From: Candidatus Wolfebacteria bacterium RIFOXYD12_FULL_48_21
GTDB lineage: Bacteria; Patescibacteriota; Minisyncoccia; UBA6257; UBA9933
Reading direction: 5' to 3'
Assembly (NCBI GenBank): GCA_001793945.1
Contig: MGIW01000005.1
Location: 57,923 to 121,922 of the forward strand
Length of the DNA: 64,000 nt
Below, in pieces: positions 1-46,068 of this stretch. The notes below the pieces were generated by a model. The model did not search any database and was not told the DNA's origin. It was given only the letters and a program-made list of their open reading frames with translations. A program made the position numbers and the translations under genes. The number at the start of each line of letters is the position of its first letter. The first letter of the stretch is position 1.

Positions 1-2189
1 CGAAGCAGTTGTTTAGTCGGGTCGCAACTCATATCACGCTCTCATCGCTGTTTTATGATACGAAGGTATACCAGCGCAGGCCCGGAGGGACCGAGCATCG
101 CGTTGAAGAAGTGGATTATGCAAAGCTCGCCGGCAAGCTCGCCATAGGATCATATAAGTTGAATGTATTCCATGTCGAAGCATTACATCGGCTGTTTGCG
201 CGCAATGCGGCGAACAGACAGATAAAGGTGTCATGGAGCGAACTGCTTGATCTGTTCAAGAAGGGATATTTTGATAAATACACCGAAGAACTAGAGGGGT
301 ACTATAACCTGATGGTCGGGCGGAAGTTTTTGCCGAACACGCCGGCGATCGCGAACTTTGGAAACCATCTCGGCATGGGAAGCGCATGTTTTACATTGGG
401 TGTTGCGGATTCTATCGAATTGATCATGGATACGCTCAAGTCCGCGGCGGTTATATTTAAGTCGGGTGGTGGCGTAGGCTATAACTTTTCACATTTGCGA
501 CCGGAAGGCGATTTTGTGAAAACGACAGGAGGCACTGCTTCGGGGCCAATCAGCTTCATGTCCATGTTCGATAACATGACCGAGGTCATCAAGCAAGGCG
601 GCATTCGCCGAGGCGCGAACATGGGTATTTTAAACAGCAACCATCCCGATATAGAAAAGTTCATCAAGGCAAAAGAGGGCAACAAGGCGTTGCGCAATTT
701 TAATATTTCGGTCATGTTGATGCCGGAGTTCTGGAAAGCGCTTGAAGAAGGGAAGCCGTATCAGCTGTTGAATCCGAGGAGCGGTAAGGTGGTAAAAGAA
801 GTGGATCCGGAACAGTTGTTTGATCTTATTGCCTATCAGGCATGGGAATCGGCAGAGCCGGGAGCGTTGTTCTTTGATAATATCAACGAGCATAATCCGT
901 TCTTGAAATCCATGGGCCCGATCGAAAGCACGAACCCGTGCGGCGAAGTGGTCTTGTACCCATATGAAAGTTGCAATCTTGGCTCGATCAATGTATGGAG
1001 CTATGCGGAAAAGAACGGAGGCAAGAAGGCAATATTCAATTGGGAGCGTCTTGCGGCTGACATTCAGGTTTCGATGCGTCTGCTTGATAATGTCATCGAT
1101 GTAAACAAATATCCGATGCCCGAGATTGAAGCCATGACATTGGCAACCAGAAAGATCGGTTTTGGCATGATGGGCCTCGGCGACCTGTTGTACGAACTTG
1201 AGATCCCGTACGATTCCAAGGAAGGTTTCGCGTTCATGGAGGAGCTTATGGAGTTCTTAAATTATCAGACCAAGGTCGCATCCGTCGATCTTGCAAAGGA
1301 GCGCGGCCGCATGCCGATGTTTGATAAGTCTTCATACAAAGATGGCAAGATGCCTTTCTCGGCATTTAAAGACAAAAAATCGTGGAGGCAGGATTGGAAG
1401 GGATTGGTCGAGAAGGTAAAGAAGTACGGCATCCGCAACGGGTTTACCACGGTGCTCGCACCGACGGGTTCCATTTCGATGATCGCGGGATGTTCGTCGG
1501 GAATCGAACCGGTTTTCAGTCTTGTGTTTGAAAAAAGCATATCAATCGGCAGTTTCTTTTATGTCGATCCGGTGTTTGAAGATCGCATGCAACGGGAAGG
1601 GTTGATGGACGACGCGCTCTTAAAGGATGTTTCGTCGACCGCGGGAAGCGTGCGAAGCATCGGTTACATGCCTCCGAAATTGAAGAAGGTATTTGTGACA
1701 TCTATGGATATCGCGCCGAAGGATCATGTGCGGGTGCTCGCCATTTTGCAGCGCTGGACCGATTCTTCCATTTCTAAAACAAATAACTTGCCGGCAACGG
1801 CGACCGTTGATGATATTAAAGAGATTTATCTGTTGGCGCATGAACTGGGGTGCAAGGGCGTTACCGTGTATCGCGATAAATCATTGACGGCTCAGGTGCT
1901 GAACGCAGGTACCAAGAAAGGAGATAAGGAGCGGGAAGATAAAAGAAAGGAAAGCGAAATGACCGTCATCAAGGATGAAAAAGCGAAAGGAATGACGATC
2001 TACCATAAGGCGGGGGCGGTCACGAGCGCGGTAGAACTCGGCCTGTCGCCGGCACCTTCGACGCTCAACGCGGAAGATTTCACCGGCTCGCTAAAGGAAC
2101 TGACTCATTGCCCAAGCTGTAAAACAAAGCTGGTGCGGCAAGAAGGTTGCCGCAAATGCCCAAACTGCGGCTGGGGATTGTGTAGCTAA
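1..2189 (+). CDS. nrdJ: Ribonucleotide reductase, class II (adenosylcobalamin-dependent-like), 5'-partial or TTG-initiated
   Basis: TNPCGEV active-site motif. C-terminal Cys zinc-ribbon (CPSCKTKLVRQEGCRKCPNCGW) typical of monomeric class II RNR. The ORF runs to the window edge with no upstream stop. Confidence 0.75.
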   Translation, partial: KQLFSRVATHITLSSLFYDTKVYQRRPGGTEHRVEEVDYAKLAGKLAIGSYKLNVFHVEALHRLFARNAANRQIKVSWSELLDLFKKGYFDKYTEELEGYYNLMVGRKFLPNTPAIANFGNHLGMGSACFTLGVADSIELIMDTLKSAAVIFKSGGGVGYNFSHLRPEGDFVKTTGGTASGPISFMSMFDNMTEVIKQGGIRRGANMGILNSNHPDIEKFIKAKEGNKALRNFNISVMLMPEFWKALEEGKPYQLLNPRSGKVVKEVDPEQLFDLIAYQAWESAEPGALFFDNINEHNPFLKSMGPIESTNPCGEVVLYPYESCNLGSINVWSYAEKNGGKKAIFNWERLAADIQVSMRLLDNVIDVNKYPMPEIEAMTLATRKIGFGMMGLGDLLYELEIPYDSKEGFAFMEELMEFLNYQTKVASVDLAKERGRMPMFDKSSYKDGKMPFSAFKDKKSWRQDWKGLVEKVKKYGIRNGFTTVLAPTGSISMIAGCSSGIEPVFSLVFEKSISIGSFFYVDPVFEDRMQREGLMDDALLKDVSSTAGSVRSIGYMPPKLKKVFVTSMDIAPKDHVRVLAILQRWTDSSISKTNNLPATATVDDIKEIYLLAHELGCKGVTVYRDKSLTAQVLNAGTKKGDKEREDKRKESEMTVIKDEKAKGMTIYHKAGAVTSAVELGLSPAPSTLNAEDFTGSLKELTHCPSCKTKLVRQEGCRKCPNCGWGLCS

Positions 2190-2233
2190 CGGCGCGAAAC
2201 GAAGAAAAACGAAACACGAAAAATGGATCAAGC

Positions 2234-2260
2234 AAAAAGGCACGCGTAGCGTGCCTTTTT
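2234..2260 (+). terminator. Rho-independent terminator hairpin after nrdJ
   Basis: aaaaaggcacgcgtagcgtgccttttt: GC stem followed by a T-run. Confidence 0.6.
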
Positions 2261-2316
2261 GGCGAGTTTTCCATATTCCGTTTTTCATTTTTCGAAATCC
2301 TTGATATACTCCCATC

Positions 2317-2967
2317 ATGAGCAACAAAGGAAAAGAGATATTGACATGGGTGGTGTTGGCAATCGGCCTCAGTGCTATCGTAGCCGGAATCTATGGCGCA
2401 GTTGCGCAACCGGGAGAGATAGGTAAAGAAGCCGGTAGTCTTGTTGCTCCGGTGACGGCGACAGATAAAACAAAAGGCAGCGCAGCAGCAAAGGTGACTG
2501 TCGTCGAGTATAGCGATTTTGAATGCCCCGCGTGCAGTTATTTCTACGGCATGCTTAAAAAGCTTGAAGAGGAAAAGGGCGATGCGGTGCGGATCGTGTA
2601 CCGCCATTTCCCGTTGCCACGGCACCGATATGCGCGCATAACGGCACAAGCGGCCGAGGCCGCCGGCATGCAGGGAAAGTTTTGGGAAATGCACGACATG
2701 CTGTTTGAAAAGCAAAAAGAATGGTCAAGGAGTGAAGACATTCAAGGGATACTGATCGGATATGCGAGCGCGATAGGGATAGACACCGCACTGTTCATAA
2801 ATGACTTGAAAAGAGCGGATATTGATGAAAAGATCGATCGTGATATGGCACTGGGCGTTGAACAGAAAATAGAAGGAACTCCGACATTCTTTTTGAATGG
2901 GAATATGATTCAATTCCGGTCATATGAAGAACTAAAACAGCTAGTTGAGGCGGAATTAAGCAAGTGA
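2317..2967 (+). CDS. DsbA-like thiol:disulfide oxidoreductase (thioredoxin fold), membrane-anchored
   Basis: N-terminal TM helix. CPAC active-site motif in the context YSDFECPACSYFY. Confidence 0.75.
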   Translation: MSNKGKEILTWVVLAIGLSAIVAGIYGAVAQPGEIGKEAGSLVAPVTATDKTKGSAAAKVTVVEYSDFECPACSYFYGMLKKLEEEKGDAVRIVYRHFPLPRHRYARITAQAAEAAGMQGKFWEMHDMLFEKQKEWSRSEDIQGILIGYASAIGIDTALFINDLKRADIDEKIDRDMALGVEQKIEGTPTFFLNGNMIQFRSYEELKQLVEAELSK

Positions 2968-2980
2968 GAATCTCTCGCAT

Positions 2981-3090
2981 TGTCATTCCGAGTGAGGCGG
3001 TACTCCGCGGAATCGAGGAATCTGTTTCTGGTTGTGTTATACCGGCGGGTGAGGGCCTGCCCTCGACCTGATCGGAGGCCGGAATCCAGT
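2981..3090. repeat. Composite palindromic repeat element of the GTCATTCC...GGAATCCAG family
   Basis: tgtcattccgagtgaggcgg...ggccggaatccagt. Related copies occur at more than 15 other sites in the window. Confidence 0.8.
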
Positions 3091-3104
3091 ACTACTATAA
3101 CGGT

Positions 3105-3524
3105 ATGAAAAAAAATCTGACAATTTGGGCAATACTCGCGTTGAGCACTATTGGCTTCATTGACTCGGTCTATTTGGCGCTAAAGATCCTTTTGAGCTCT
3201 CCCATAACCTGTTCTGCCTTTGGCGGCGGGTGCGATATTGTCGCGCAATCAAAATATAGCGCCATAGTGGGCGTACCGCTCTCGATGCTGGGTGTGTTGT
3301 TCTACGCGGCGATTATTATCGGCATAACATATTATCTGCAAAGGCGAACAATTAAGTCCCTGGAGTGGATAGCATACGGCTTGCTATTTGGCGGATTGTT
3401 CTCGATTTACCTGCTTGCTCTGCAGGCGTTTGTCATTGAAGCATGGTGCTTGTATTGCGTGGTGGCAGACGCAATCGGGATCGCAAATGCGCTATTGGCG
3501 ATCCGGCTATTGCGAATGAAATAA
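3105..3524 (+). CDS. Vitamin K epoxide reductase (VKOR) family membrane protein
   Basis: Four predicted TM segments. Loop cysteine pair CSAFGGGC. CLYC (CXXC) in the last TM. Sits immediately downstream of the DsbA-like gene. Confidence 0.75.
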   Translation: MKKNLTIWAILALSTIGFIDSVYLALKILLSSPITCSAFGGGCDIVAQSKYSAIVGVPLSMLGVLFYAAIIIGITYYLQRRTIKSLEWIAYGLLFGGLFSIYLLALQAFVIEAWCLYCVVADAIGIANALLAIRLLRMK

Positions 3525-3533
3525 TGGTAAAAA

Positions 3534-3558
3534 CCCCGTTCCTGGGCAAGGAACGGGG
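3534..3558. repeat. Palindromic hairpin CCCCGTTCCT-N5-AGGAACGGGG (copy 1)
   Basis: A perfect 10-bp stem. The same stem recurs at 4779-4804 on the other side of the ATPase gene. Confidence 0.8.
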
Positions 3559-3578
3559 TGGGGGGGGTCTGCATACCC

Positions 3579-39704: not shown

Positions 39705-40526
39705 ATGAACACGATCGCAAAACGAACAACTCAATGTATCCTGAAATGGCTCGCAAAGGCACATATCGCCAAAACGAAGCCATATATTATCGTGATCGCG
39801 GGTACGACCAGACGCGCATGGATAAAGGAAGCGGTGGAGCGCGCGTTACTCGAGCGCAACACATTGGTCCGCTCGAGTAAAAAGCATTTCAATGCGGAAC
39901 TTGGGTTGCCGTTGTCTATTCTGGATCTTCCGTCAGGGGAGGGGAACGCGCGCAAATGGATTGGCGTGCTATGGCAGGCTTTCAAAAAGGTTGCCGATTT
40001 TAGAAAAAAGACGATAAGCAGGGAGCGAATAGAACACCTTGTGCTTGAGTTGGCGATTGATACTCCGCGAGACATGGATTATTTGTTGAGCATCGTAAAG
40101 CCGAACATGGTGGTCATGACGACGGTGACCATGGTCTATGCGGAACAATTCGAAACCTTGGACAATGTTGCGCATGAATTCGAGGCGCTCGCCGCAGCAC
40201 TCCCATGGAATGGCATATTGGTACTGAATGCCGATGACGATCGCATCCGTGAGCTTTCGCATGCATACAAGGGCAAAACGGTAACCTATGGTTTTGCCGA
40301 AGATGCGCAGTTCAGGGCGGTCGACGCCCGCAGAACGGAAACGGGCGAGGAGTTCCGCTTTGAGGTAAAGCGCAAGGAGCTCGAGTCGTATCGCAAAAAA
40401 ATCAACAGGTTCGGCAAGCATCATATCTATGCGGAGCTGGTTCGCGAAATTGTGCTTGACAACTTCAAGGCCCAACCAAAAGATTTCTTCAACCGCATGG
40501 CAAAGGGGTTGTTGGATAGGGGATAG
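39705..40526 (+). CDS. Mur ligase-like protein with degenerate P-loop (probable pseudoenzyme)
   Basis: IIVIAGTTRRAWIKEAVERAL aligns to ITGTNGKTTT with GKT replaced by RRA. ILVLNADDDRI matches the MurF-type motif. Confidence 0.35.
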   Translation: MNTIAKRTTQCILKWLAKAHIAKTKPYIIVIAGTTRRAWIKEAVERALLERNTLVRSSKKHFNAELGLPLSILDLPSGEGNARKWIGVLWQAFKKVADFRKKTISRERIEHLVLELAIDTPRDMDYLLSIVKPNMVVMTTVTMVYAEQFETLDNVAHEFEALAAALPWNGILVLNADDDRIRELSHAYKGKTVTYGFAEDAQFRAVDARRTETGEEFRFEVKRKELESYRKKINRFGKHHIYAELVREIVLDNFKAQPKDFFNRMAKGLLDRG

Positions 40527-40530
40527 AATG
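40473..40530 (+). repeat. 58-bp direct repeat, copy 1 (the 3' end of the Mur ligase-like CDS)
   Basis: caaccaaaagatttcttcaaccgcatggcaaaggggttgttggataggggatagaatg. Has one mismatch to copy 2 at 41451-41508. Confidence 0.85.
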
Positions 40531-40585
40531 ATGGAGGATAAAAAGTGGGCTGGATTTTAATGTGTTTTTATGATATAATATAAAA

Positions 40586-40816
40586 ATGAAAACGCTTGAT
40601 AAAAAATCGCTGTTTTGGGATGTTCGCGATATCGATCCGCAAAAAAATGCACGGTTTATAATCGAGCGGATCTTGGCGTTTGGCGACTTGGACGACTTCA
40701 AATGGTTGGTAGACAGGTACGGAGTTGAAAAGATTAAGGATGTATGCGCGCACAGCAAGGTGCTTGATAGAAAATCGGCATCGTTTTGGAACAATTATTT
40801 TCGTCGAAACGCATAA
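40586..40816 (+). CDS. Small hypothetical protein, candidate cognate partner (antitoxin?) of the downstream AbiEii-like gene
   Basis: 76 aa. Its stop lies 3 nt before the start of the next gene. Confidence 0.35.
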   Translation: MKTLDKKSLFWDVRDIDPQKNARFIIERILAFGDLDDFKWLVDRYGVEKIKDVCAHSKVLDRKSASFWNNYFRRNA

Positions 40817-40818
40817 TA

Positions 40819-41448
40819 ATGCATACAGAATCAATCCACGAAGAAACAAAGAAGGTATTGGAACTATTGTCGGCGAGCGGTGTCGTCGACGGTTTTTATT
40901 TAGCGGGCGGGACGGCGCTGGCAATACAGCTCGGGCATCGGGAATCGATCGATCTTGATTGGTTTTGCAGTGCAGGTTTTTCAAACGAACAGCTGATATC
41001 CCTCTTGGCGAAGCTGGGCGTTTTTTCGCTCACGAGCGAAGATGTTGATACGGTGCACGGTGTATTGAATGGAGTAAAAATAAGTTTTTTGAAATACGAC
41101 CATGAGCAACTGTTTCCATTTGTCGAGTTTGATGGCGTGCGAGTGGCAGACGAGCGCGATATAGCGGCGATGAAGATCAGCGCCATATCGTCACGCGGAA
41201 GCAAAAAGGATTTTATCGATCTGTATTTTCTGATGCAGAAATATCACATAACTGAATTGCTTGTGTTGTTTGAGCGGAAGCATAGCGGCATTCAATATAA
41301 CATGCTGCACATTTTGAAAAGCTTGGATTTTTTCGATAGCGCGGACGATGACCCGATGCCAATCATGCTCAAGCCGATTGAATGGCCAGAGGTTAAACGG
41401 GCGATCGAGCGGGAGGTGGACGGTTATATTGCAAAATATAGGAAGTAA
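40819..41448 (+). CDS. Nucleotidyltransferase of the AbiEii/AbiGii (DUF1814) toxin family
   Basis: GGTAL motif with RESIDLDWF (FYLAGGTALAIQLGHRESIDLDWF). About 210 aa. A start at the ATG at 40819 is preferred. Confidence 0.6.
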   Translation: MHTESIHEETKKVLELLSASGVVDGFYLAGGTALAIQLGHRESIDLDWFCSAGFSNEQLISLLAKLGVFSLTSEDVDTVHGVLNGVKISFLKYDHEQLFPFVEFDGVRVADERDIAAMKISAISSRGSKKDFIDLYFLMQKYHITELLVLFERKHSGIQYNMLHILKSLDFFDSADDDPMPIMLKPIEWPEVKRAIEREVDGYIAKYRK

Positions 41449-41450
41449 GA

Positions 41451-41508
41451 CAACCAAAAGATTTCTTCAACCGCATGGCAAAAGGGTTGTTGGATAGGGG
41501 ATAGAATG
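41451..41508 (+). repeat. 58-bp direct repeat, copy 2
   Basis: caaccaaaagatttcttcaaccgcatggcaaaagggttgttggataggggatagaatg. Confidence 0.85.
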
Positions 41509-41518
41509 GTATGGAATA

Positions 41519-41548
41519 AAAACGCCGCCGGATTTTCGGCGGCATTTT
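41519..41548 (+). terminator. Rho-independent terminator
   Basis: aaaaacgccgccggattttcggcggcatttt. Confidence 0.65.
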
Positions 41549-41561
41549 GCTGTGCGTCAAA

Positions 41562-41589
41562 AATAAAAGGTTTGACAAATACTATAAAT
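41562..41589 (+). promoter_or_regulatory. Sigma70-like promoter
   Basis: TTGACA, a 16-nt spacer, then CATAAT. Confidence 0.4.
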
Positions 41590-41655
41590 AATGCATAATT
41601 TATCCAGATAGCAAATTACAGGCCTTAAAAAATAAATAGCGGAAGGGAGAAGACC

Positions 41656-42243
41656 ATGACAGATGATCTCGGGAAGTTTATCAATGGGAGGGTTGTTTCA
41701 GAACTGGAGAAAAGGGGTGTGACCGAAGCGGATATCAACTTGGTTGTGGAAAAGGGTGAAGTATTGGCAGTCGACATATTCGTCGACGCCTTCTTGAAGT
41801 GCCTCCAGCGGGTTAAGGAGGCATTCCGTACTATGACCGGAGGCACCCGCACGACCGATGAGGTCGTTGCCGCCGGCAACTATGACTGGGTGAACTCCAT
41901 GGTCAACGGGGATAACTTCCCGATGCGGCCCATGCCCGATGGTCCCCGCGAGATAGTGTTCCTCGAATTCGATCACGATACGACATCCGAGGAAGCCCTT
42001 GCGGAAGCGGAGCGACAAGGGCTTGAGCGTCCTCTGTACGAAGACGCACTGTTTTTCGGAGAACAGCATCCCGAAGAACAGCGCAAAGACCCGATCGTAT
42101 TCCTGCACGAACCGTGGCAGGACCCGTGCGGCAACCTGAGCGTGCTGGTACTCGACTGCGGTGACAGGTACCGCTACCTGCGCCTGGGCTACTTCGGCGA
42201 CAGTTGGGATCGGCGGTGTCGGTTCGCGTTCGTCCGAAAGTAA
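41656..42243 (+). CDS. Hypothetical protein (GC-rich, likely foreign)
   Basis: 195-aa ORF at about 60% GC, with SD gggaga. Followed by a terminator at 42301-42329. Confidence 0.35.
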   Translation: MTDDLGKFINGRVVSELEKRGVTEADINLVVEKGEVLAVDIFVDAFLKCLQRVKEAFRTMTGGTRTTDEVVAAGNYDWVNSMVNGDNFPMRPMPDGPREIVFLEFDHDTTSEEALAEAERQGLERPLYEDALFFGEQHPEEQRKDPIVFLHEPWQDPCGNLSVLVLDCGDRYRYLRLGYFGDSWDRRCRFAFVRK

Positions 42244-42300
42244 CTTGGATTCTGAGAATCTTGTGCCTTGTCGGGCACTTGGACCCTTGGAATCTTTCTA

Positions 42301-42329
42301 CGGCCCTCGCTATGCGAGGGCCTTTTTTG
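42301..42329 (+). terminator. Rho-independent terminator
   Basis: cggccctcgctatgcgagggcctttttt. Confidence 0.65.
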
Positions 42330-42390
42330 TTAGAGAGCAAATATTTTTTGTATTATTGCACAATTATACTATATTTAGTACAATTAAATC

Positions 42391-43230
42391 ATGGGAAGAA
42401 AAATGGTATCCATTTCAATAGAGAAATTAAGGGAACTGTATATCGATAAATACTTATCATCCTATGAAATCGGGGAGCAATTTAATTGTTCGGATGCTAC
42501 CATTAGAAATAAATTAAAAGAGGCGGGAATCAAATTGCGATCAGGCGGTAGGAAAAAGTTCAAATATAAAAAATATTCCTTCGCGGGGAATGATACGATA
42601 AAGGCATATATGGTTGGGTTCAGAATCGGAGATCTAAATGTATATCGGCCGAGCGTCAATTCGAGAATATTAGTGATAAGGTGTCATACGACCATATTGC
42701 ATCAAGTAGATGTTATAAAATTTTTGTTTGGTAAATATGGGAAAGTAGAGGATGCAATTGGGAAAACTGGATCATATCATGTTAATGTTTATCTGGACCA
42801 GTCATTCGATTTTTTAGTGAGTAAAACAGAAATACCCCAATGGATAAAGGAGGGGGATTCTGCCGTTAAGTGGTCATTTATAGCGGGGTATGTAGACGCC
42901 GAAGGGTCTTTTAAGCTAAATCAAGGCAAGGGGCGATTTAAGATAGATGCGTACGATTACTTTATTTTGGAATGGATTAATGAATTTTTGCAAAATGAGC
43001 AGATCAATGGTAAGTTTAGGCGAATATGCGAGAAGGGGGAGCTTAAGTATGCATCCTATGTATGGAAGGATGACCTATGGAGATTGGAAGTAAATTCTGC
43101 GCATTGCTTGGAGCGGTTTATACAAGGGATGATGCCATATCTCTTACATGTCGATAGAATAAAAGATGCTAAAATAGTATTAGAGAATATCAATGAACGA
43201 AAAAAACGGGGGACAATTAAGTCATATTAG
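42391..43230 (+). CDS. Free-standing double-motif LAGLIDADG homing endonuclease-like protein with N-terminal HTH
   Basis: Motif 1 YMVGFRIGDLNV. Motif 2 FIAGYVDAEGSF. N-terminal HTH LRELYIDKYLSSYEIGEQFNCSDATIRNKLKEAG. An AT-rich gene. Confidence 0.65.
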   Translation: MGRKMVSISIEKLRELYIDKYLSSYEIGEQFNCSDATIRNKLKEAGIKLRSGGRKKFKYKKYSFAGNDTIKAYMVGFRIGDLNVYRPSVNSRILVIRCHTTILHQVDVIKFLFGKYGKVEDAIGKTGSYHVNVYLDQSFDFLVSKTEIPQWIKEGDSAVKWSFIAGYVDAEGSFKLNQGKGRFKIDAYDYFILEWINEFLQNEQINGKFRRICEKGELKYASYVWKDDLWRLEVNSAHCLERFIQGMMPYLLHVDRIKDAKIVLENINERKKRGTIKSY

Positions 43231-45013
43231 AAACTTTGCGATAATAGCCCACATAGATGCGGGAAAGTCCACATTGGCTGACCGTCTATTGGAGATTACC
43301 AAGACCGTGGAAGTGCGCGACATGAAGGCGCAATTTTTGGATCAAATGGATCTCGAGCGTGAGCGGGGCATTACTATAAAAATGGCTCCGGTGCGCATGG
43401 ACTATGTGAGCCAACGCGACGGAAAGAAATACATATTGAATCTTATAGACACGCCGGGTCACCCCGACTTTGCATATGAGGTATCGCGCGCGTTTAAGGC
43501 GGTAGAGGGCGTCATTTTGTTGGTGGATGCGACGCAGGGCATACAGGCGCAGACCTTGGCGAATTTTGAAATGGCAAAAAAGGCGGGCGTCAAAGTGATC
43601 GGTGCGTTGAACAAGGTAGACATGAACCCGCCGCAGCTCGAGACGGTATTACTTGAAACTGCGCAGCTGTTGGATTGTCCGCTTGAAGATATATTCAGAA
43701 TATCGGGAAAAACCGGCGCGGGCGTGCAGGAACTGCTCGAAGAAGTGATCGTGAAACTTCCGCCTCCGAAGGAGTGGGAACAAGGATCGAAAGAACAAAA
43801 GGCAGAATCCACGGCAGGGAGGGCGGCGCTGGTGTTTGATTCGGTGTACGACGACCACAAGGGCATCATCGCATTCGTGCGGGTGTTTCATGGCGAGTTT
43901 GCGGGCAACCAAGATACAAAACTGGTGGCGACGAATGTGAAAATAAAAACAAAGGAGGTCGGCTACTTCCAGCCGAAAATGAAGGCATCGCCGAAGATAA
44001 CAAAAGGGGAGATTGGTTACATCGCGACCGGCATCAAGGATCCGGATAAATTGAAGATCGGCGATACGATCGGCGACACCGATTTGGGAGGATATCAGGA
44101 ACCGCAACCGCGGGTATTTGTTTCCTTCTTCCCGGAAGATGGTAGCGAATATGAAGAACTGAAAAAATCGTTTCAAAAATTGAAATTGACCGACCCGGCA
44201 CTTAAGACCGACCCGGATTACAACGATGTATTGGGCCGAGGATTTAAAGTTGGCTTTTTGGGCAAGTTGCATTTTGAGATCATTTCGCAGCGATTGGAGC
44301 AGGATTTTGACATGAGTACGGTAAACAGCTTCCCGTCGGTGGCGTACAAAATAAAGAAGCCGCATGGAAAGGAATTGGTGGTGATAGAAAACCCGCAGGA
44401 CCTGCCGGCGGAATATGACGAAATATGGGAGCCGATGATCGAGCTGGAGATATTGGCGCCCACGGTCTATTTGGGGCCGATCATGAAGCTAAAAGAGATG
44501 TTTCGCATGGGAGAAATGCAGACGACCAACATGGTCGATCGCGTGCTCATCAAAACGCGCATGCCGCTCATGGAATTGATATCCGACTTCGACGACCAGC
44601 TGAAATCGCTGACCCACGGGTTTGCGTCATTTAGTTACGAAATGTCCGAATACCAAAAGGCGGACCTTGCGCGCATCGATGTGATGGTTGCAAAGGATAT
44701 GGTGGTCGGCTTGTCGCGCATTTTGCCAAAAAAAGACATAGAATACGAGGCACGACAAATGGCGATACGCTTGAAGGATCTTTTACCGCAACAACAGTTT
44801 GCGCAGGCTATTCAGATCACAACGGGAGCGAAAGTCATCGCGCGCGAAACGATAGCGCCGATGCGCAAGGATGTGACGGGGTATTTGTACGGTGGCGACA
44901 GAACGCGCAAAATGAAACTGTGGAAAAAGCAGAAAGAAGGAAAGAAACGGTTGCTTTCCATGGCAAAGGTAAATGTATCCGCCGATGTGTTCAAGGAACT
45001 GCTGAAGAAGTGA
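43193..45013 (+). CDS. lepA: Translation elongation factor 4 (LepA)
   Basis: NFAIIAHIDAGKSTL G1 motif. DTPGH. NKVD. About 600 aa, with a LepA-specific C-terminal domain. Confidence 0.9.
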   Translation: MNEKNGGQLSHIRNFAIIAHIDAGKSTLADRLLEITKTVEVRDMKAQFLDQMDLERERGITIKMAPVRMDYVSQRDGKKYILNLIDTPGHPDFAYEVSRAFKAVEGVILLVDATQGIQAQTLANFEMAKKAGVKVIGALNKVDMNPPQLETVLLETAQLLDCPLEDIFRISGKTGAGVQELLEEVIVKLPPPKEWEQGSKEQKAESTAGRAALVFDSVYDDHKGIIAFVRVFHGEFAGNQDTKLVATNVKIKTKEVGYFQPKMKASPKITKGEIGYIATGIKDPDKLKIGDTIGDTDLGGYQEPQPRVFVSFFPEDGSEYEELKKSFQKLKLTDPALKTDPDYNDVLGRGFKVGFLGKLHFEIISQRLEQDFDMSTVNSFPSVAYKIKKPHGKELVVIENPQDLPAEYDEIWEPMIELEILAPTVYLGPIMKLKEMFRMGEMQTTNMVDRVLIKTRMPLMELISDFDDQLKSLTHGFASFSYEMSEYQKADLARIDVMVAKDMVVGLSRILPKKDIEYEARQMAIRLKDLLPQQQFAQAIQITTGAKVIARETIAPMRKDVTGYLYGGDRTRKMKLWKKQKEGKKRLLSMAKVNVSADVFKELLKK

Positions 45014-45480: not shown

Positions 45481-46068
45481 ATGAAACCCAAAAAAATAGT
45501 AAAACTGACTGCACTCATCGGAGGAGGAATTATATTGATTGGAGGTATTGTGATCGGGGTGACCGGCTTATGGCCGGTTGCGCGCGTGGGTGCTTCACCG
45601 ATCACCTATGCGGCATTCAGGGATAATTTCATGATGGTGGATTATTTTTATCGGAGCAATGTGCGGATCACCGGCGGAAGCGACCAGGCGGTAAATACGA
45701 ATGAGGTCCAGCGCGATCTGCAGCGCGTGACTATGGAGGGCTTGATCGACAGGATATTGATCGATCGCGAGCTGAAAAAGCGCTATACCGATGACGATCT
45801 CGAGCGGTTGATCGCAAATAAGATAGAGGGAGTCGATTTGACTTCGGAAACGATGGTAGAAGCGATGAGACTGATGTACGGATTGGAAGCGGAGGGATTT
45901 AAGGAGCTGGTATTGATCCCGAAAGCGAAGCAAGAGATTCTCGAGGGAAATCTATCCCTGCAAAATGGAACATTCAGCGATTGGTTGGCAGCACAAAAAA
46001 CGGAAGCAAGTATTCTTGTGTTTGTGCCGAGCCTTCAGTGGAGCGGAGATGAGGTGCGGGTTCGATAA
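45481..46068 (+). CDS. Hypothetical membrane-anchored protein (possibly SurA-N-like chaperone domain)
   Basis: An N-terminal TM helix and a helical extracytoplasmic domain. Confidence 0.3.
   Translation: MKPKKIVKLTALIGGGIILIGGIVIGVTGLWPVARVGASPITYAAFRDNFMMVDYFYRSNVRITGGSDQAVNTNEVQRDLQRVTMEGLIDRILIDRELKKRYTDDDLERLIANKIEGVDLTSETMVEAMRLMYGLEAEGFKELVLIPKAKQEILEGNLSLQNGTFSDWLAAQKTEASILVFVPSLQWSGDEVRVR

What the first reader, a model, noticed from the sequence alone, without database searches (positions are those of the whole stretch)
42391..43230. Free-standing double-motif LAGLIDADG homing-endonuclease-like gene adjacent to lepA
The 279-aa protein has two LAGLIDADG-type motifs (YMVGFRIGDLNV and FIAGYVDAEGSF) and an N-terminal HTH. 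It is AT-rich relative to the flanks. It is not embedded in an intron or intein but sits as an independent gene whose 3' end overlaps the lepA start by 38 nt. Free-standing LAGLIDADG genes in bacteria are uncommon and usually mark mobile DNA. The GC-rich hypothetical gene at 41656-42243 just upstream suggests a composite insertion hotspot spanning 39.7-43.2 kb.
Basis: partly seen in the sequence, partly recalled or inferred. Interest (0 to 1): 0.55.

Follow-up and report, generated by a model that had tools for sequence, protein, structure and literature searches.

The report
Mobile LAGLIDADG endonuclease gene at lepA start
A selfish DNA-cutting-enzyme gene sits directly in front of the translation factor gene lepA in this Wolfebacteria genome; its tail supplies lepA's start codon, the same family sits at that spot in every related locus I could test, and close relatives lack it.

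Summary
ORF 42391-43230 (+) encodes a 279-aa protein with an N-terminal helix-turn-helix and two LAGLIDADG domains. It is AT-rich (GC 0.37 against 0.50 for lepA) and overlaps the lepA ATG by 38 nt.

It belongs to a large Patescibacteria (CPR) family with 372 50%-identity clusters at E<=1e-30. Both catalytic acids (D81, E171) are invariant in 72/72 distinct copies, and dN/dS is 0.07-0.18. In 86/88 related loci lepA follows immediately; the other two contigs end before it could.

The gene is not a fixed host gene:
- The closest Wolfebacteria (LepA 94-97% identical) have an empty site, with the murF-like gene, a terminator, then lepA.
- Carriers and non-carriers interleave on the flank-gene tree.
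- Two independent sharp mosaics show the cassette, plus about 100-200 nt of lepA 5' end, moving between lineages.
- The gene is lower in GC than lepA in 45/45 loci.

Best reading: an active free-standing homing endonuclease that targets the lepA 5' end. Cleavage and the target site are inferred, not shown.

The inserted stretch is 40521-43222, not 39.7-43.2 kb, and it also contains a separately inserted AbiEii toxin-antitoxin cassette.

The parts
42391..43230 (+). Free-standing LAGLIDADG homing endonuclease gene (279 aa) with an N-terminal HTH
   Evidence: ORF; LAGLIDADG_3 above the gathering score; AF2 pLDDT 91.7; Foldseek top hits PI-PfuI, E-DreI, I-DmoI, I-Tsp061I and I-AniI, all probability 1.0; family of 372 clusters at E<=1e-30
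42418..42522 (+). N-terminal three-helix HTH module (residues 10-44), presumed extra DNA-binding domain
   Evidence: AF2 helices 10-19, 24-30 and 35-44; weak HTH_11, HTH_DeoR and Sigma70_r4 hits; relatives carry 2-4 or more tandem copies of this module
42607..42642 (+). LAGLIDADG motif 1 (YMVGFRIGDLNV); catalytic D81 at codon 42631-42633
   Evidence: D81 invariant in 72/72 distinct copies
42877..42912 (+). LAGLIDADG motif 2 (FIAGYVDAEGSF); catalytic E171 at codon 42901-42903
   Evidence: E171 invariant in 72/72
43193..43230 (+). 38-nt overlap: the endonuclease 3' end carries the lepA ATG and its first codons. The endonuclease stop TAG (43228-43230) is built from lepA codons ATT-AGA.
   Evidence: overlaps of 1-46 nt in 43 of 45 complete loci
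43193..45013 (+). lepA (EF4), the host gene whose 5' end is the insertion site
   Evidence: Pfam GTP_EFTU, EFG_C and LepA_C; homology to empty-site alleles resumes at 43223
42211..43410 (+). Recently exchanged block: endonuclease gene plus about 180 nt upstream and about 180 nt of lepA 5' end (presumed co-conversion tract)
   Evidence: Window against L001: 97.7% (42211-43230) and 96.7% (43231-43410) identity, against 84.1% in the ORF upstream and 92.8% in the rest of lepA; Fisher p=1e-23 and 8e-9
42302..42384 (+). Terminator-like hairpin with T-run (42302-42322 plus tail), then two promoter-like sites (42327-42356, 42357-42384) just upstream of the endonuclease ATG
   Evidence: Consensus scan only. 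The inference is that the endonuclease and the coupled lepA form their own transcription unit.
40521..43222 (+). All DNA present here but absent from empty-site Wolfebacteria relatives
   Evidence: blastn homology to L089, L091 and L092 ends at about 40510-40520 and resumes at 43223; the empty sites have only 50-80 nt with a terminator hairpin
40559..41450 (+). DUF6922 (40586-40816) + AbiEii (40786-41448) toxin-antitoxin cassette: a separate, later insertion
   Evidence: Pfam; present only in the window, L001 and L009, absent from HEG+ L093; 95.7% identity to L001 against 89.5% in the adjacent native gene
40473..40558 (+). Direct repeat copy 1 (native 3' end of the Mur-ligase-like gene plus a decayed terminator)
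   Evidence: the repeat finder D1, 86 nt, 87% identity
41451..41536 (+). Direct repeat copy 2 (duplicated gene 3' end plus an intact terminator at 41524-41543)
41656..42243 (+). GC-rich 195-aa hypothetical gene, absent from the empty sites. It is not part of the endonuclease block.
   Evidence: Homologue upstream of the endonuclease in L001, L009, L093 and L094 only. It is a member of a multi-copy CPR family with paralogues in the same genome. It is 84% identical to L001 against 98% for the endonuclease block.
39705..40526 (+). Native Mur_ligase_M-only gene (273 aa), the left flank of the site
   Evidence: Present next to lepA in all empty-site relatives

Best explanation
The ORF is an active, selfish, free-standing LAGLIDADG homing endonuclease gene (HEG). 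Its family is specialised on one chromosomal site, the extreme 5' end of lepA, in Patescibacteria.

Proposed mechanism, all steps inferred:
1. The monomeric two-domain enzyme, helped by its N-terminal HTH module, recognises a long asymmetric site at or next to the lepA start in genomes that lack the gene.
2. It makes a double-strand break there.
3. Repair from an HEG-carrying copy, taken up from another cell, copies in the cassette together with a short stretch of the donor's lepA 5' end.

The cassette does not use an intron or intein to keep the host gene intact. It replaces the native lepA start and first 3-4 codons with its own 3' end. That 3' end carries, in another frame, a new ATG and N-terminal codons. 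lepA then stays functional and becomes translationally, and probably transcriptionally, coupled to the HEG.

Shown here: domain and fold, catalytic residues, purifying selection, strict site specificity, empty sites in close relatives, polyphyletic presence and recombinant mosaics.

Inferred: DNA cleavage, the position of the target, the repair route and the role of the HTH.
For: Enzyme:
- LAGLIDADG_3 scores above the gathering cut-off, and 31/37 family members hit it.
- The AF2 model has pLDDT 91.7. Its best PDB matches are PI-PfuI, I-DmoI, I-Tsp061I and I-AniI, all probability 1.0.
- D81 and E171 are invariant in 72/72 copies.
- The other invariant residues (R97, T101, R182, K184, D186, W230, R231) lie in or directly next to (T101) the beta-strands that form the DNA-binding saddle.
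- dN/dS is 0.07-0.18.
- Only 1 of 88 copies has a premature stop.

Site specificity:
- lepA is immediately downstream in 86/88 loci, and the other two contigs end too early to test.
- The lepA ATG lies inside the HEG 3' end in 43 of 45 complete loci.
- The upstream neighbour varies: murJ in many loci, other genes elsewhere.

Mobility:
- Empty sites without remnants occur in L089-L092 (LepA 94-97% identical), L095 and L097.
- On the flank-gene tree each carrier has a non-carrier sister, with 200/200 and 188/200 bootstrap support.
- L068 against L060: the HEG region is 94-100% identical in DNA, falling to 0.84, 0.81 and 0.70 into lepA and below 0.57 upstream. The LepA proteins are only 72% identical.
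- Window against L001 shows the same pattern, with p=8e-9 and 1e-23.
- The HEG is lower in GC than lepA in 45/45 loci, by 0.11 on average, and by 0.15 at third codon positions.
- A more distant multi-HTH relative sits at a different housekeeping locus, groES-groEL.
Against: - No cleavage assay exists and the recognition site is unknown.
- Pairwise distances of the HEG and LepA are correlated overall (Pearson 0.69, Mantel 0/2000). Most inheritance is therefore vertical, and clear transfers are few.
- Almost no decayed copies were seen, whereas the classical HEG life cycle predicts some.
- The conserved lepA 5' coding sequence persists right next to the HEG. Self-immunity therefore has to come from junction disruption or from substitutions I could not identify.
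- A candidate immunity change (P-loop His to Ala, Arg codon AGA) holds only in Wolfebacteria, and one non-carrier also has Ala.
- All comparison data are metagenome assemblies.
- No vector was found: the cultured-phage collection gave no match, and the viral contigs gave a single 28%-identical relative.
Confidence: 0.8

Rival explanations
1. The protein is a domesticated LAGLIDADG+HTH protein with a host function. It could be a WhiA-like DNA-binding regulator, or a factor that controls or accompanies lepA, kept because the cell needs it.
For: Synteny with lepA is 100% where testable, with start-stop overlap. Conservation is as strong as for LepA itself, with mean pairwise distance 0.53 against 0.47. 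dN/dS is about 0.1. HEG and LepA distances are correlated. Almost no pseudogenes were seen.
Against: - The gene is absent without trace from the closest relatives, which have an intact lepA.
- Presence is polyphyletic.
- Cassette-limited mosaics occur.
- GC and GC3 are anomalous in 45/45 genomes.
- Both catalytic acids are invariant, whereas WhiA, from established knowledge, has lost them.
- No WhiA Pfam family hits any of 37 members.
- The HTH is N-terminal, not C-terminal.
Confidence: 0.1
2. The gene is an inactive relic of an old insertion. It is retained only because its 3' end now carries the lepA start codon and ribosome loading site, so the cell cannot delete it.
For: The native lepA start was replaced, and the only ATG lies inside the ORF. 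A terminator lies upstream and promoter-like sites lie in front of the ORF.
Against: Retention for the overlap would select at most for an open frame near the 3' end. It would not explain dN/dS of 0.07-0.18 along the protein, 72/72 invariant catalytic residues and conserved beta-sheet residues, or recent lateral spread. Clean empty sites show that loss, or non-acquisition, is viable.
Confidence: 0.05
3. The protein is an RNA maturase or other RNA-binding LAGLIDADG protein that serves the many rRNA or tRNA insertions of CPR bacteria.
For: Foldseek also matches the bifunctional I-AniI and the bI3 maturase. CPR rRNA genes are rich in LAGLIDADG-bearing insertions (PMC11270868).
Against: The gene is not located in or near an intron, and no intron RNA family was found. 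The catalytic residues are strictly kept. The strict link is to lepA, not to rRNA. Distribution is patchy among close relatives.
Confidence: 0.03

Closest known systems
Monomeric double-motif LAGLIDADG homing endonucleases (I-DmoI, I-Tsp061I, PI-PfuI endonuclease domain, I-AniI)
   Same: Two pseudo-symmetric alpha-beta-beta-alpha-beta-beta-alpha domains, with one acidic residue per LAGLIDADG helix (D81, E171). These are the best structural matches, at E 5e-10 to 1e-8 and probability 1.0. Pfam LAGLIDADG_3 matches.
   Different: Sequence identity to solved structures is only 11-18%, and phmmer finds no PDB LAGLIDADG structure. The gene is not inside an intron or intein. It has an extra N-terminal HTH module, repeated in relatives. 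Its target is a bacterial protein-gene start rather than an rRNA, tRNA or intein site.
Free-standing phage homing endonucleases and 'intronless homing' (T4 Seg and Mob enzymes, F-CphI); from established knowledge, not tested here
   Same: The nuclease gene lies between conserved genes. Distribution among relatives is patchy. There is a mosaic or co-conversion tract reaching into the neighbouring conserved gene. The gene is AT-rich.
   Different: Those enzymes are GIY-YIG or HNH and reside in phage genomes. This one is LAGLIDADG, chromosomal in cellular bacteria, always at one site, and physically overlaps and rebuilds the host gene's start.
LAGLIDADG endonucleases inside rRNA insertions of CPR bacteria (Brown et al. 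2015, as cited in PMC11270868; PMC11270868)
   Same: Same phylum-level hosts and the same enzyme superfamily, with spread inferred to be by target-specific homing.
   Different: Those lie within 16S/23S rRNA insertions that are removed from the transcript. That paper does not mention lepA, a free-standing copy or a helix-turn-helix.
WhiA (bacterial LAGLIDADG scaffold + HTH regulator)
   Same: A LAGLIDADG double domain is fused to an HTH in a chromosomal, free-standing bacterial gene.
   Different: In WhiA the HTH is C-terminal, the catalytic acids are lost, and the gene is universally conserved in its lineages (established knowledge). Here the HTH is N-terminal, the acids are invariant and presence is patchy. 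No WhiA Pfam family hits.
Yeast HO endonuclease (free-standing LAGLIDADG with an added DNA-binding domain)
   Same: It is free-standing and has an accessory DNA-binding domain added to a LAGLIDADG core.
   Different: HO derives from an intein, is domesticated for mating-type switching and is eukaryotic. Nothing here points to a host function.

Membership tests
LAGLIDADG homing endonuclease superfamily | Profile match to a LAGLIDADG family above the curated threshold | tested here: met
   PF14528 LAGLIDADG_3 at 26.2 bits against a 22.5-bit cut-off; 31 of 37 family members match, best E 5.7e-10
LAGLIDADG homing endonuclease superfamily | Two alpha-beta-beta-alpha-beta-beta-alpha domains packed through the LAGLIDADG helices | tested here: met
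   AF2 model with pLDDT 91.7 and the expected element order; Foldseek matches to I-DmoI, PI-PfuI, I-AniI and others at probability 1.0. This is a prediction, not a solved structure.
LAGLIDADG homing endonuclease superfamily | A conserved acidic metal-binding residue at the end of each LAGLIDADG helix | tested here: met
   D81 (GFRIGD) and E171 (GYVDAE) are invariant in 72/72 distinct copies
LAGLIDADG homing endonuclease superfamily | Site-specific double-strand cleavage of a long target | not testable with these tools
   Needs purified protein and substrates carrying the empty-site lepA 5' region
Homing (mobile) endonuclease gene | Present or absent at one and the same site among close relatives, with clean empty sites | tested here: met
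   Empty sites in L089-L092, L095 and L097; no remnants by tblastn or by profile HMM; carriers are polyphyletic on the flank tree
Homing (mobile) endonuclease gene | Gene history discordant with its flanks, with co-conversion of adjacent host sequence | tested here: met
   L068/L060: 95% against 72% amino-acid identity, with sharp DNA boundaries. Window/L001: block 42211-43410. Most other pairs look vertical.
Homing (mobile) endonuclease gene | The empty allele contains the recognition site and the occupied allele is immune | not testable with these tools
   Only the junction is known: homology resumes at 43223, one codon before IRNF. The candidate immunity substitutions did not generalise.
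Free-standing (not intron- or intein-encoded) HEG | An independent ORF, with no flanking intron RNA and no in-frame fusion to the host protein | tested here: met
   No intron family and no match at gathering score in Rfam, 39-46 kb. The ORF is in a different frame from lepA, and overlap lengths across loci fall in both non-zero frame offsets.
WhiA family | WhiA_N, LAGLIDADG_WhiA and C-terminal HTH_WhiA domains; loss of the catalytic acids; universal presence in the lineage | tested here: not met
   No WhiA Pfam family hits at E<=1 for the window protein or at E<=0.01 for 37 members. The HTH is N-terminal, the acids are kept and presence is patchy.

The most novel reading that the evidence does not exclude
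This family may represent a third way for a homing endonuclease gene to insert harmlessly into an essential-type gene, besides introns and inteins: 'start-replacement' homing. The cassette lands on the first codons of lepA. It rebuilds the start codon and N-terminus inside its own 3' end, in another frame, and brings its own promoter. lepA expression is thereby captured by the element. That dependence would act as an addiction that slows loss, which would explain why the family is intact almost everywhere and looks largely vertical despite being selfish. A further possibility is that the tandem N-terminal HTH modules retarget the same nuclease core to other housekeeping loci, such as groESL in L096.
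Probability: 0.35. Interest if true: 0.7.

Novelty: new variant of a known kind. Interest (0 to 1): 0.6.

Why it matters
- It adds a large, uncharacterised family of compact monomeric LAGLIDADG enzymes that presumably share one conserved target. There are 372 clusters at E<=1e-30 and about 2,000 at E<=1e-10. Such families are raw material for meganuclease engineering and for studying how specificity evolves.
- It indicates that chromosomal protein-coding genes of CPR bacteria, and not only their rRNA genes, are invaded by homing elements. That implies regular DNA exchange and recombination among these episymbiotic, reduced-genome organisms.
- The overlap architecture, in which the host gene's start lies inside the selfish gene, is an unusual solution to the problem of inserting without harm. 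It gives a testable model for how a selfish gene can become hard to lose.
- In practice, the sharp cassette-limited mosaics at lepA can mislead phylogenies and strain tracking that use lepA or its neighbourhood.

Tried and rejected
1. A genome-contig scan with the single protein returned only one near-identical locus, L001.
2. P-loop His to Ala (IDAGK) and Arg codon AGA as immunity marks of occupied alleles. This holds in Wolfebacteria. Most carriers elsewhere keep His, and the non-carrier L097 has Ala. AGA in the window is more simply explained: ATT-AGA forms the endonuclease's TAG stop. Rejected as a general rule.
3. The GC-rich 195-aa ORF as cargo of the endonuclease cassette. It belongs to a multi-copy CPR family with paralogues elsewhere in the same genome, and it lies outside the high-identity block. 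Rejected.
4. Decayed endonuclease remnants in empty sites. None were found by tblastn (E<=0.01) or by six-frame profile HMM with filters off.
5. An intron- or intein-borne origin. No Rfam family reached its gathering score, no intron family appeared among the three weak E<=1 matches, and the frame differs from lepA.
6. A phage vector. GenBank phages gave no hit, and IMG/VR gave one relative at 28% identity.
7. WhiA-like domestication (see the membership test).
8. A sequence search of the PDB gave only noise. The fold search was needed.
9. Literature searches found no description of a lepA-linked free-standing LAGLIDADG gene. The library is limited to open-access papers.

Full report
**1. The observation**

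The ORF at 42391-43230 (+) is present as described. It is 279 aa with an ATG start and a TAG stop. The two motifs are encoded at 42607-42642 (YMVGFRIGDLNV) and 42877-42912 (FIAGYVDAEGSF).

Pfam LAGLIDADG_3 matches residues 162-244 above its gathering score, at 26.2 against 22.5 bits. The N-terminus gives only sub-threshold HTH hits.

GC is 0.34-0.39 over the gene. It is about 0.50 in lepA and 0.56-0.59 in the ORF upstream.

lepA (43193-45013) has no canonical start codon between ATG 43193 and the conserved IRNF codons. The 38-nt out-of-frame overlap is therefore real. The window is Candidatus Wolfebacteria. One neighbouring protein is 100% identical to a protein of the RIFOXYD12_FULL_48_21 genome.

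**2. What the protein is**

An AlphaFold2 model built on 37 family members is confident (pLDDT 91.7). It shows a three-helix module (residues 10-44), a flexible linker, and two alpha-beta-beta-alpha-beta-beta-alpha domains.

Foldseek against the PDB returns only LAGLIDADG homing endonucleases at the top: PI-PfuI, E-DreI, I-DmoI, I-Tsp061I and I-AniI, all at probability 1.0 with 11-18% identity. A sequence search of the PDB finds nothing.

The family is large:
- 121 close homologues, mostly near 275 aa, named by their sources as Wolfe-, Kaiser-, Taylor- and Berkelbacteria or as Paceibacterota/Patescibacteria.
- 372, 2006 and 7666 cluster representatives at E<=1e-30, 1e-10 and 1e-3.
- Many relatives are 320-460 aa with two to four tandem N-terminal HTH modules. 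Two-module versions also occur at lepA.

Both metal-binding acids (D81, E171) are invariant in 72/72 distinct copies. The remaining invariant residues sit mostly in or next to the beta-strands that make the DNA-binding saddle. dN/dS is 0.07-0.18. Only one of 88 copies has a premature stop. I infer an active nuclease that binds a conserved DNA sequence.

**3. Where the family sits**

In 88 loci that carry a family member, lepA follows immediately in 86. These loci are 1 from genome contigs, 7 from contig look-ups and 80 from JGI metagenomes. The remaining two contigs stop within 50 nt of the endonuclease stop.

In 43 of 45 complete loci the lepA ATG lies 1-46 nt inside the endonuclease 3' end.

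The upstream neighbour is not fixed. It is murJ in many loci, at 55 nt to 2.7 kb, and other genes in the window and elsewhere. A more distant multi-HTH relative (37% identity) lies instead next to groES-groEL.

**4. It is not a fixed host gene**

I looked up LepA proteins 94-97% identical to the window's, one at 72% and one at 64%. All six loci (L089-L092, L095, L097) are empty. In the Wolfebacteria relatives (L089-L092, L095) the order is aminotransferase, Mur-ligase-like gene, then lepA; in L089-L092 the gap before lepA is 50-80 nt with a terminator hairpin. There is no trace of the endonuclease by tblastn or by an unfiltered six-frame profile search.

Homology between the window and these alleles ends at about 40520 and resumes at 43223, one codon before IRNF. 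The native lepA start and first 3-4 codons have therefore been replaced. The replacement start is the ATG at 43193, and ten new codons lie inside the endonuclease gene. The endonuclease's TAG stop is built from lepA codons ATT-AGA.

On a tree of four flanking proteins, each carrier has a non-carrier sister:
- ((window, L001), L091-empty), 200/200 bootstraps.
- (L093-carrier, L089-empty), 188/200 bootstraps.

At least two gains or losses therefore occurred within a clade whose flanks differ by 18% or less.

**5. Direct signs of lateral movement**

Across 38 distinct loci, endonuclease and LepA distances correlate (Pearson 0.69; Mantel 0/2000). Descent is therefore largely vertical. There are clear exceptions.

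- L068 against L060:
  - The two endonucleases are 95% identical while the adjacent LepA proteins are 72% identical. This is a 4-sd outlier.
  - DNA identity is 94-100% over the gene and about 200 nt upstream. It falls to 0.84, 0.81 and 0.70 into lepA and below 0.57 upstream.
  - L068's flanks are closest to L078, whose endonuclease is only 46% identical.
- Window against L001:
  - 42211-43230 is 97.7% identical and the next 180 nt of lepA 96.7%.
  - The ORF upstream is 84.1% identical and the rest of lepA 92.8% (Fisher p=1e-23 and 8e-9).
  - The edges are sharp, at about 42210-42237 and about 43411.
- The gene is lower in GC than lepA in 45/45 loci (mean -0.11; GC3 -0.15), while still tracking host GC.

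**6. The rest of the inserted stretch**

The window's extra DNA (40521-43222) is composite.

- The DUF6922/AbiEii toxin-antitoxin pair (40586-41448) is bracketed by an 86-nt direct duplication of the Mur-ligase-like gene's 3' end (40473-40558 and 41451-41536). It occurs only in the window, L001 and L009, not in the carrier L093. It is itself more similar to L001 than its flank is (95.7% against 89.5%).
- The GC-rich 195-aa ORF is absent from the empty sites. It belongs to a multi-copy CPR family with paralogues in the same genome, and it lies outside the exchanged block.
- The gene at 39705-40526 is native.
- A terminator-like hairpin (42302-42322) and promoter-like sites (42327-42384) precede the endonuclease. 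This suggests, by inference only, that the endonuclease and lepA form one unit.

**7. Mechanism**

The best explanation is homing:
1. The enzyme cuts lepA-start alleles that lack it.
2. Repair from a carrier copy installs the cassette with a short co-conversion tract.
3. The cassette's 3' end restores a working lepA start.

Cleavage, target position, the source of self-immunity and the route of DNA entry are all inferred. My attempt to find immunity substitutions failed to generalise.

Rival explanations are a domesticated regulator, an inert relic kept for the overlap, and a maturase. They are disfavoured by the empty sites, the mosaics, the strict conservation of the catalytic residues and the lack of any WhiA or intron signal.

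**8. Comparison with known systems and novelty**

The protein meets every testable criterion of a LAGLIDADG homing endonuclease and of a free-standing mobile HEG. It fails the WhiA criteria.

It works like the free-standing phage endonucleases that spread by intronless homing. It differs in three ways: it is LAGLIDADG-type, it is chromosomal in cellular bacteria, and it is tied to one site whose start codon it rebuilds.

In CPR bacteria, LAGLIDADG genes have been described inside rRNA insertions (PMC11270868). I found no report of this lepA-linked family, within the limits of an open-access library.

Verdict: a real and well-supported mobile element, and a new variant of a known kind. Interest 0.6.

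Noticed in passing
L013 about 1781-3569 (lepA), L031 2627-3361; LepA homologues P0158 and P0179: Some CPR lepA genes downstream of the endonuclease carry an in-frame insertion of about 170 aa in the G domain, between ITIKMQPVRM and ILNLIDTPGH. The insert looks like a GxxExxY / PD-(D/E)XK_3 nuclease-like domain (PF13366 was precomputed on the 740-752 aa LepA homologues). This would be a second kind of nuclease-like insertion in the same host gene.
   Followed up: partly
window 40473-41536: The DUF6922 + AbiEii toxin-antitoxin cassette is bracketed by an 86-nt direct duplication of the neighbouring gene's 3' end and terminator. It is more similar to the L001 genome (95.7%) than the adjacent native gene is (89.5%). 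It is a separately mobile module inserted at the same intergenic spot.
   Followed up: partly
window 41656-42243; also window 45481-46068: The GC-rich 195-aa hypothetical belongs to a multi-copy CPR family with at least two paralogues in the same Wolfebacteria genome. It diverges fast: 81.5% amino-acid identity to L001, against 99.5% for LepA. The unrelated 195-aa ORF downstream of lepA/divIC is also only 75% identical to L001.
   Followed up: partly
window 39705-40526 and homologues in L089-L095: A 268-296 aa protein that matches only the middle domain of Mur ligases (a MurF-like fragment) is conserved as an intact gene next to lepA in all Wolfebacteria relatives examined. It is therefore a real short Mur-ligase-like protein, not a truncation artefact.
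   Followed up: no
L096 3366-4568: A 400-aa relative with several N-terminal HTH modules (37% identity) lies convergent to the 3' end of groEL rather than at lepA. Other relatives reach 821 aa with 14 HTH-like repeats (P0347). HTH-array variants of this nuclease may target other housekeeping loci.
   Followed up: partly
L029 1463-2290: This is the only family copy with an in-frame stop (codon 10) among 88 loci. It could be a decaying copy or a sequencing error.
   Followed up: no
L098 4001-4741 (IMG/VR contig, 111 kb): The only viral-contig relative of the family, at 28% identity over residues 26-263.
   Followed up: no
L092 2330-2575; L097 7731-7988 and 1265-2500: Small GIY-YIG domain ORFs, and in L097 a reverse transcriptase and a serine recombinase, lie within a few kb of lepA in endonuclease-free relatives. 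The neighbourhood is rich in other mobile-element genes.
   Followed up: no
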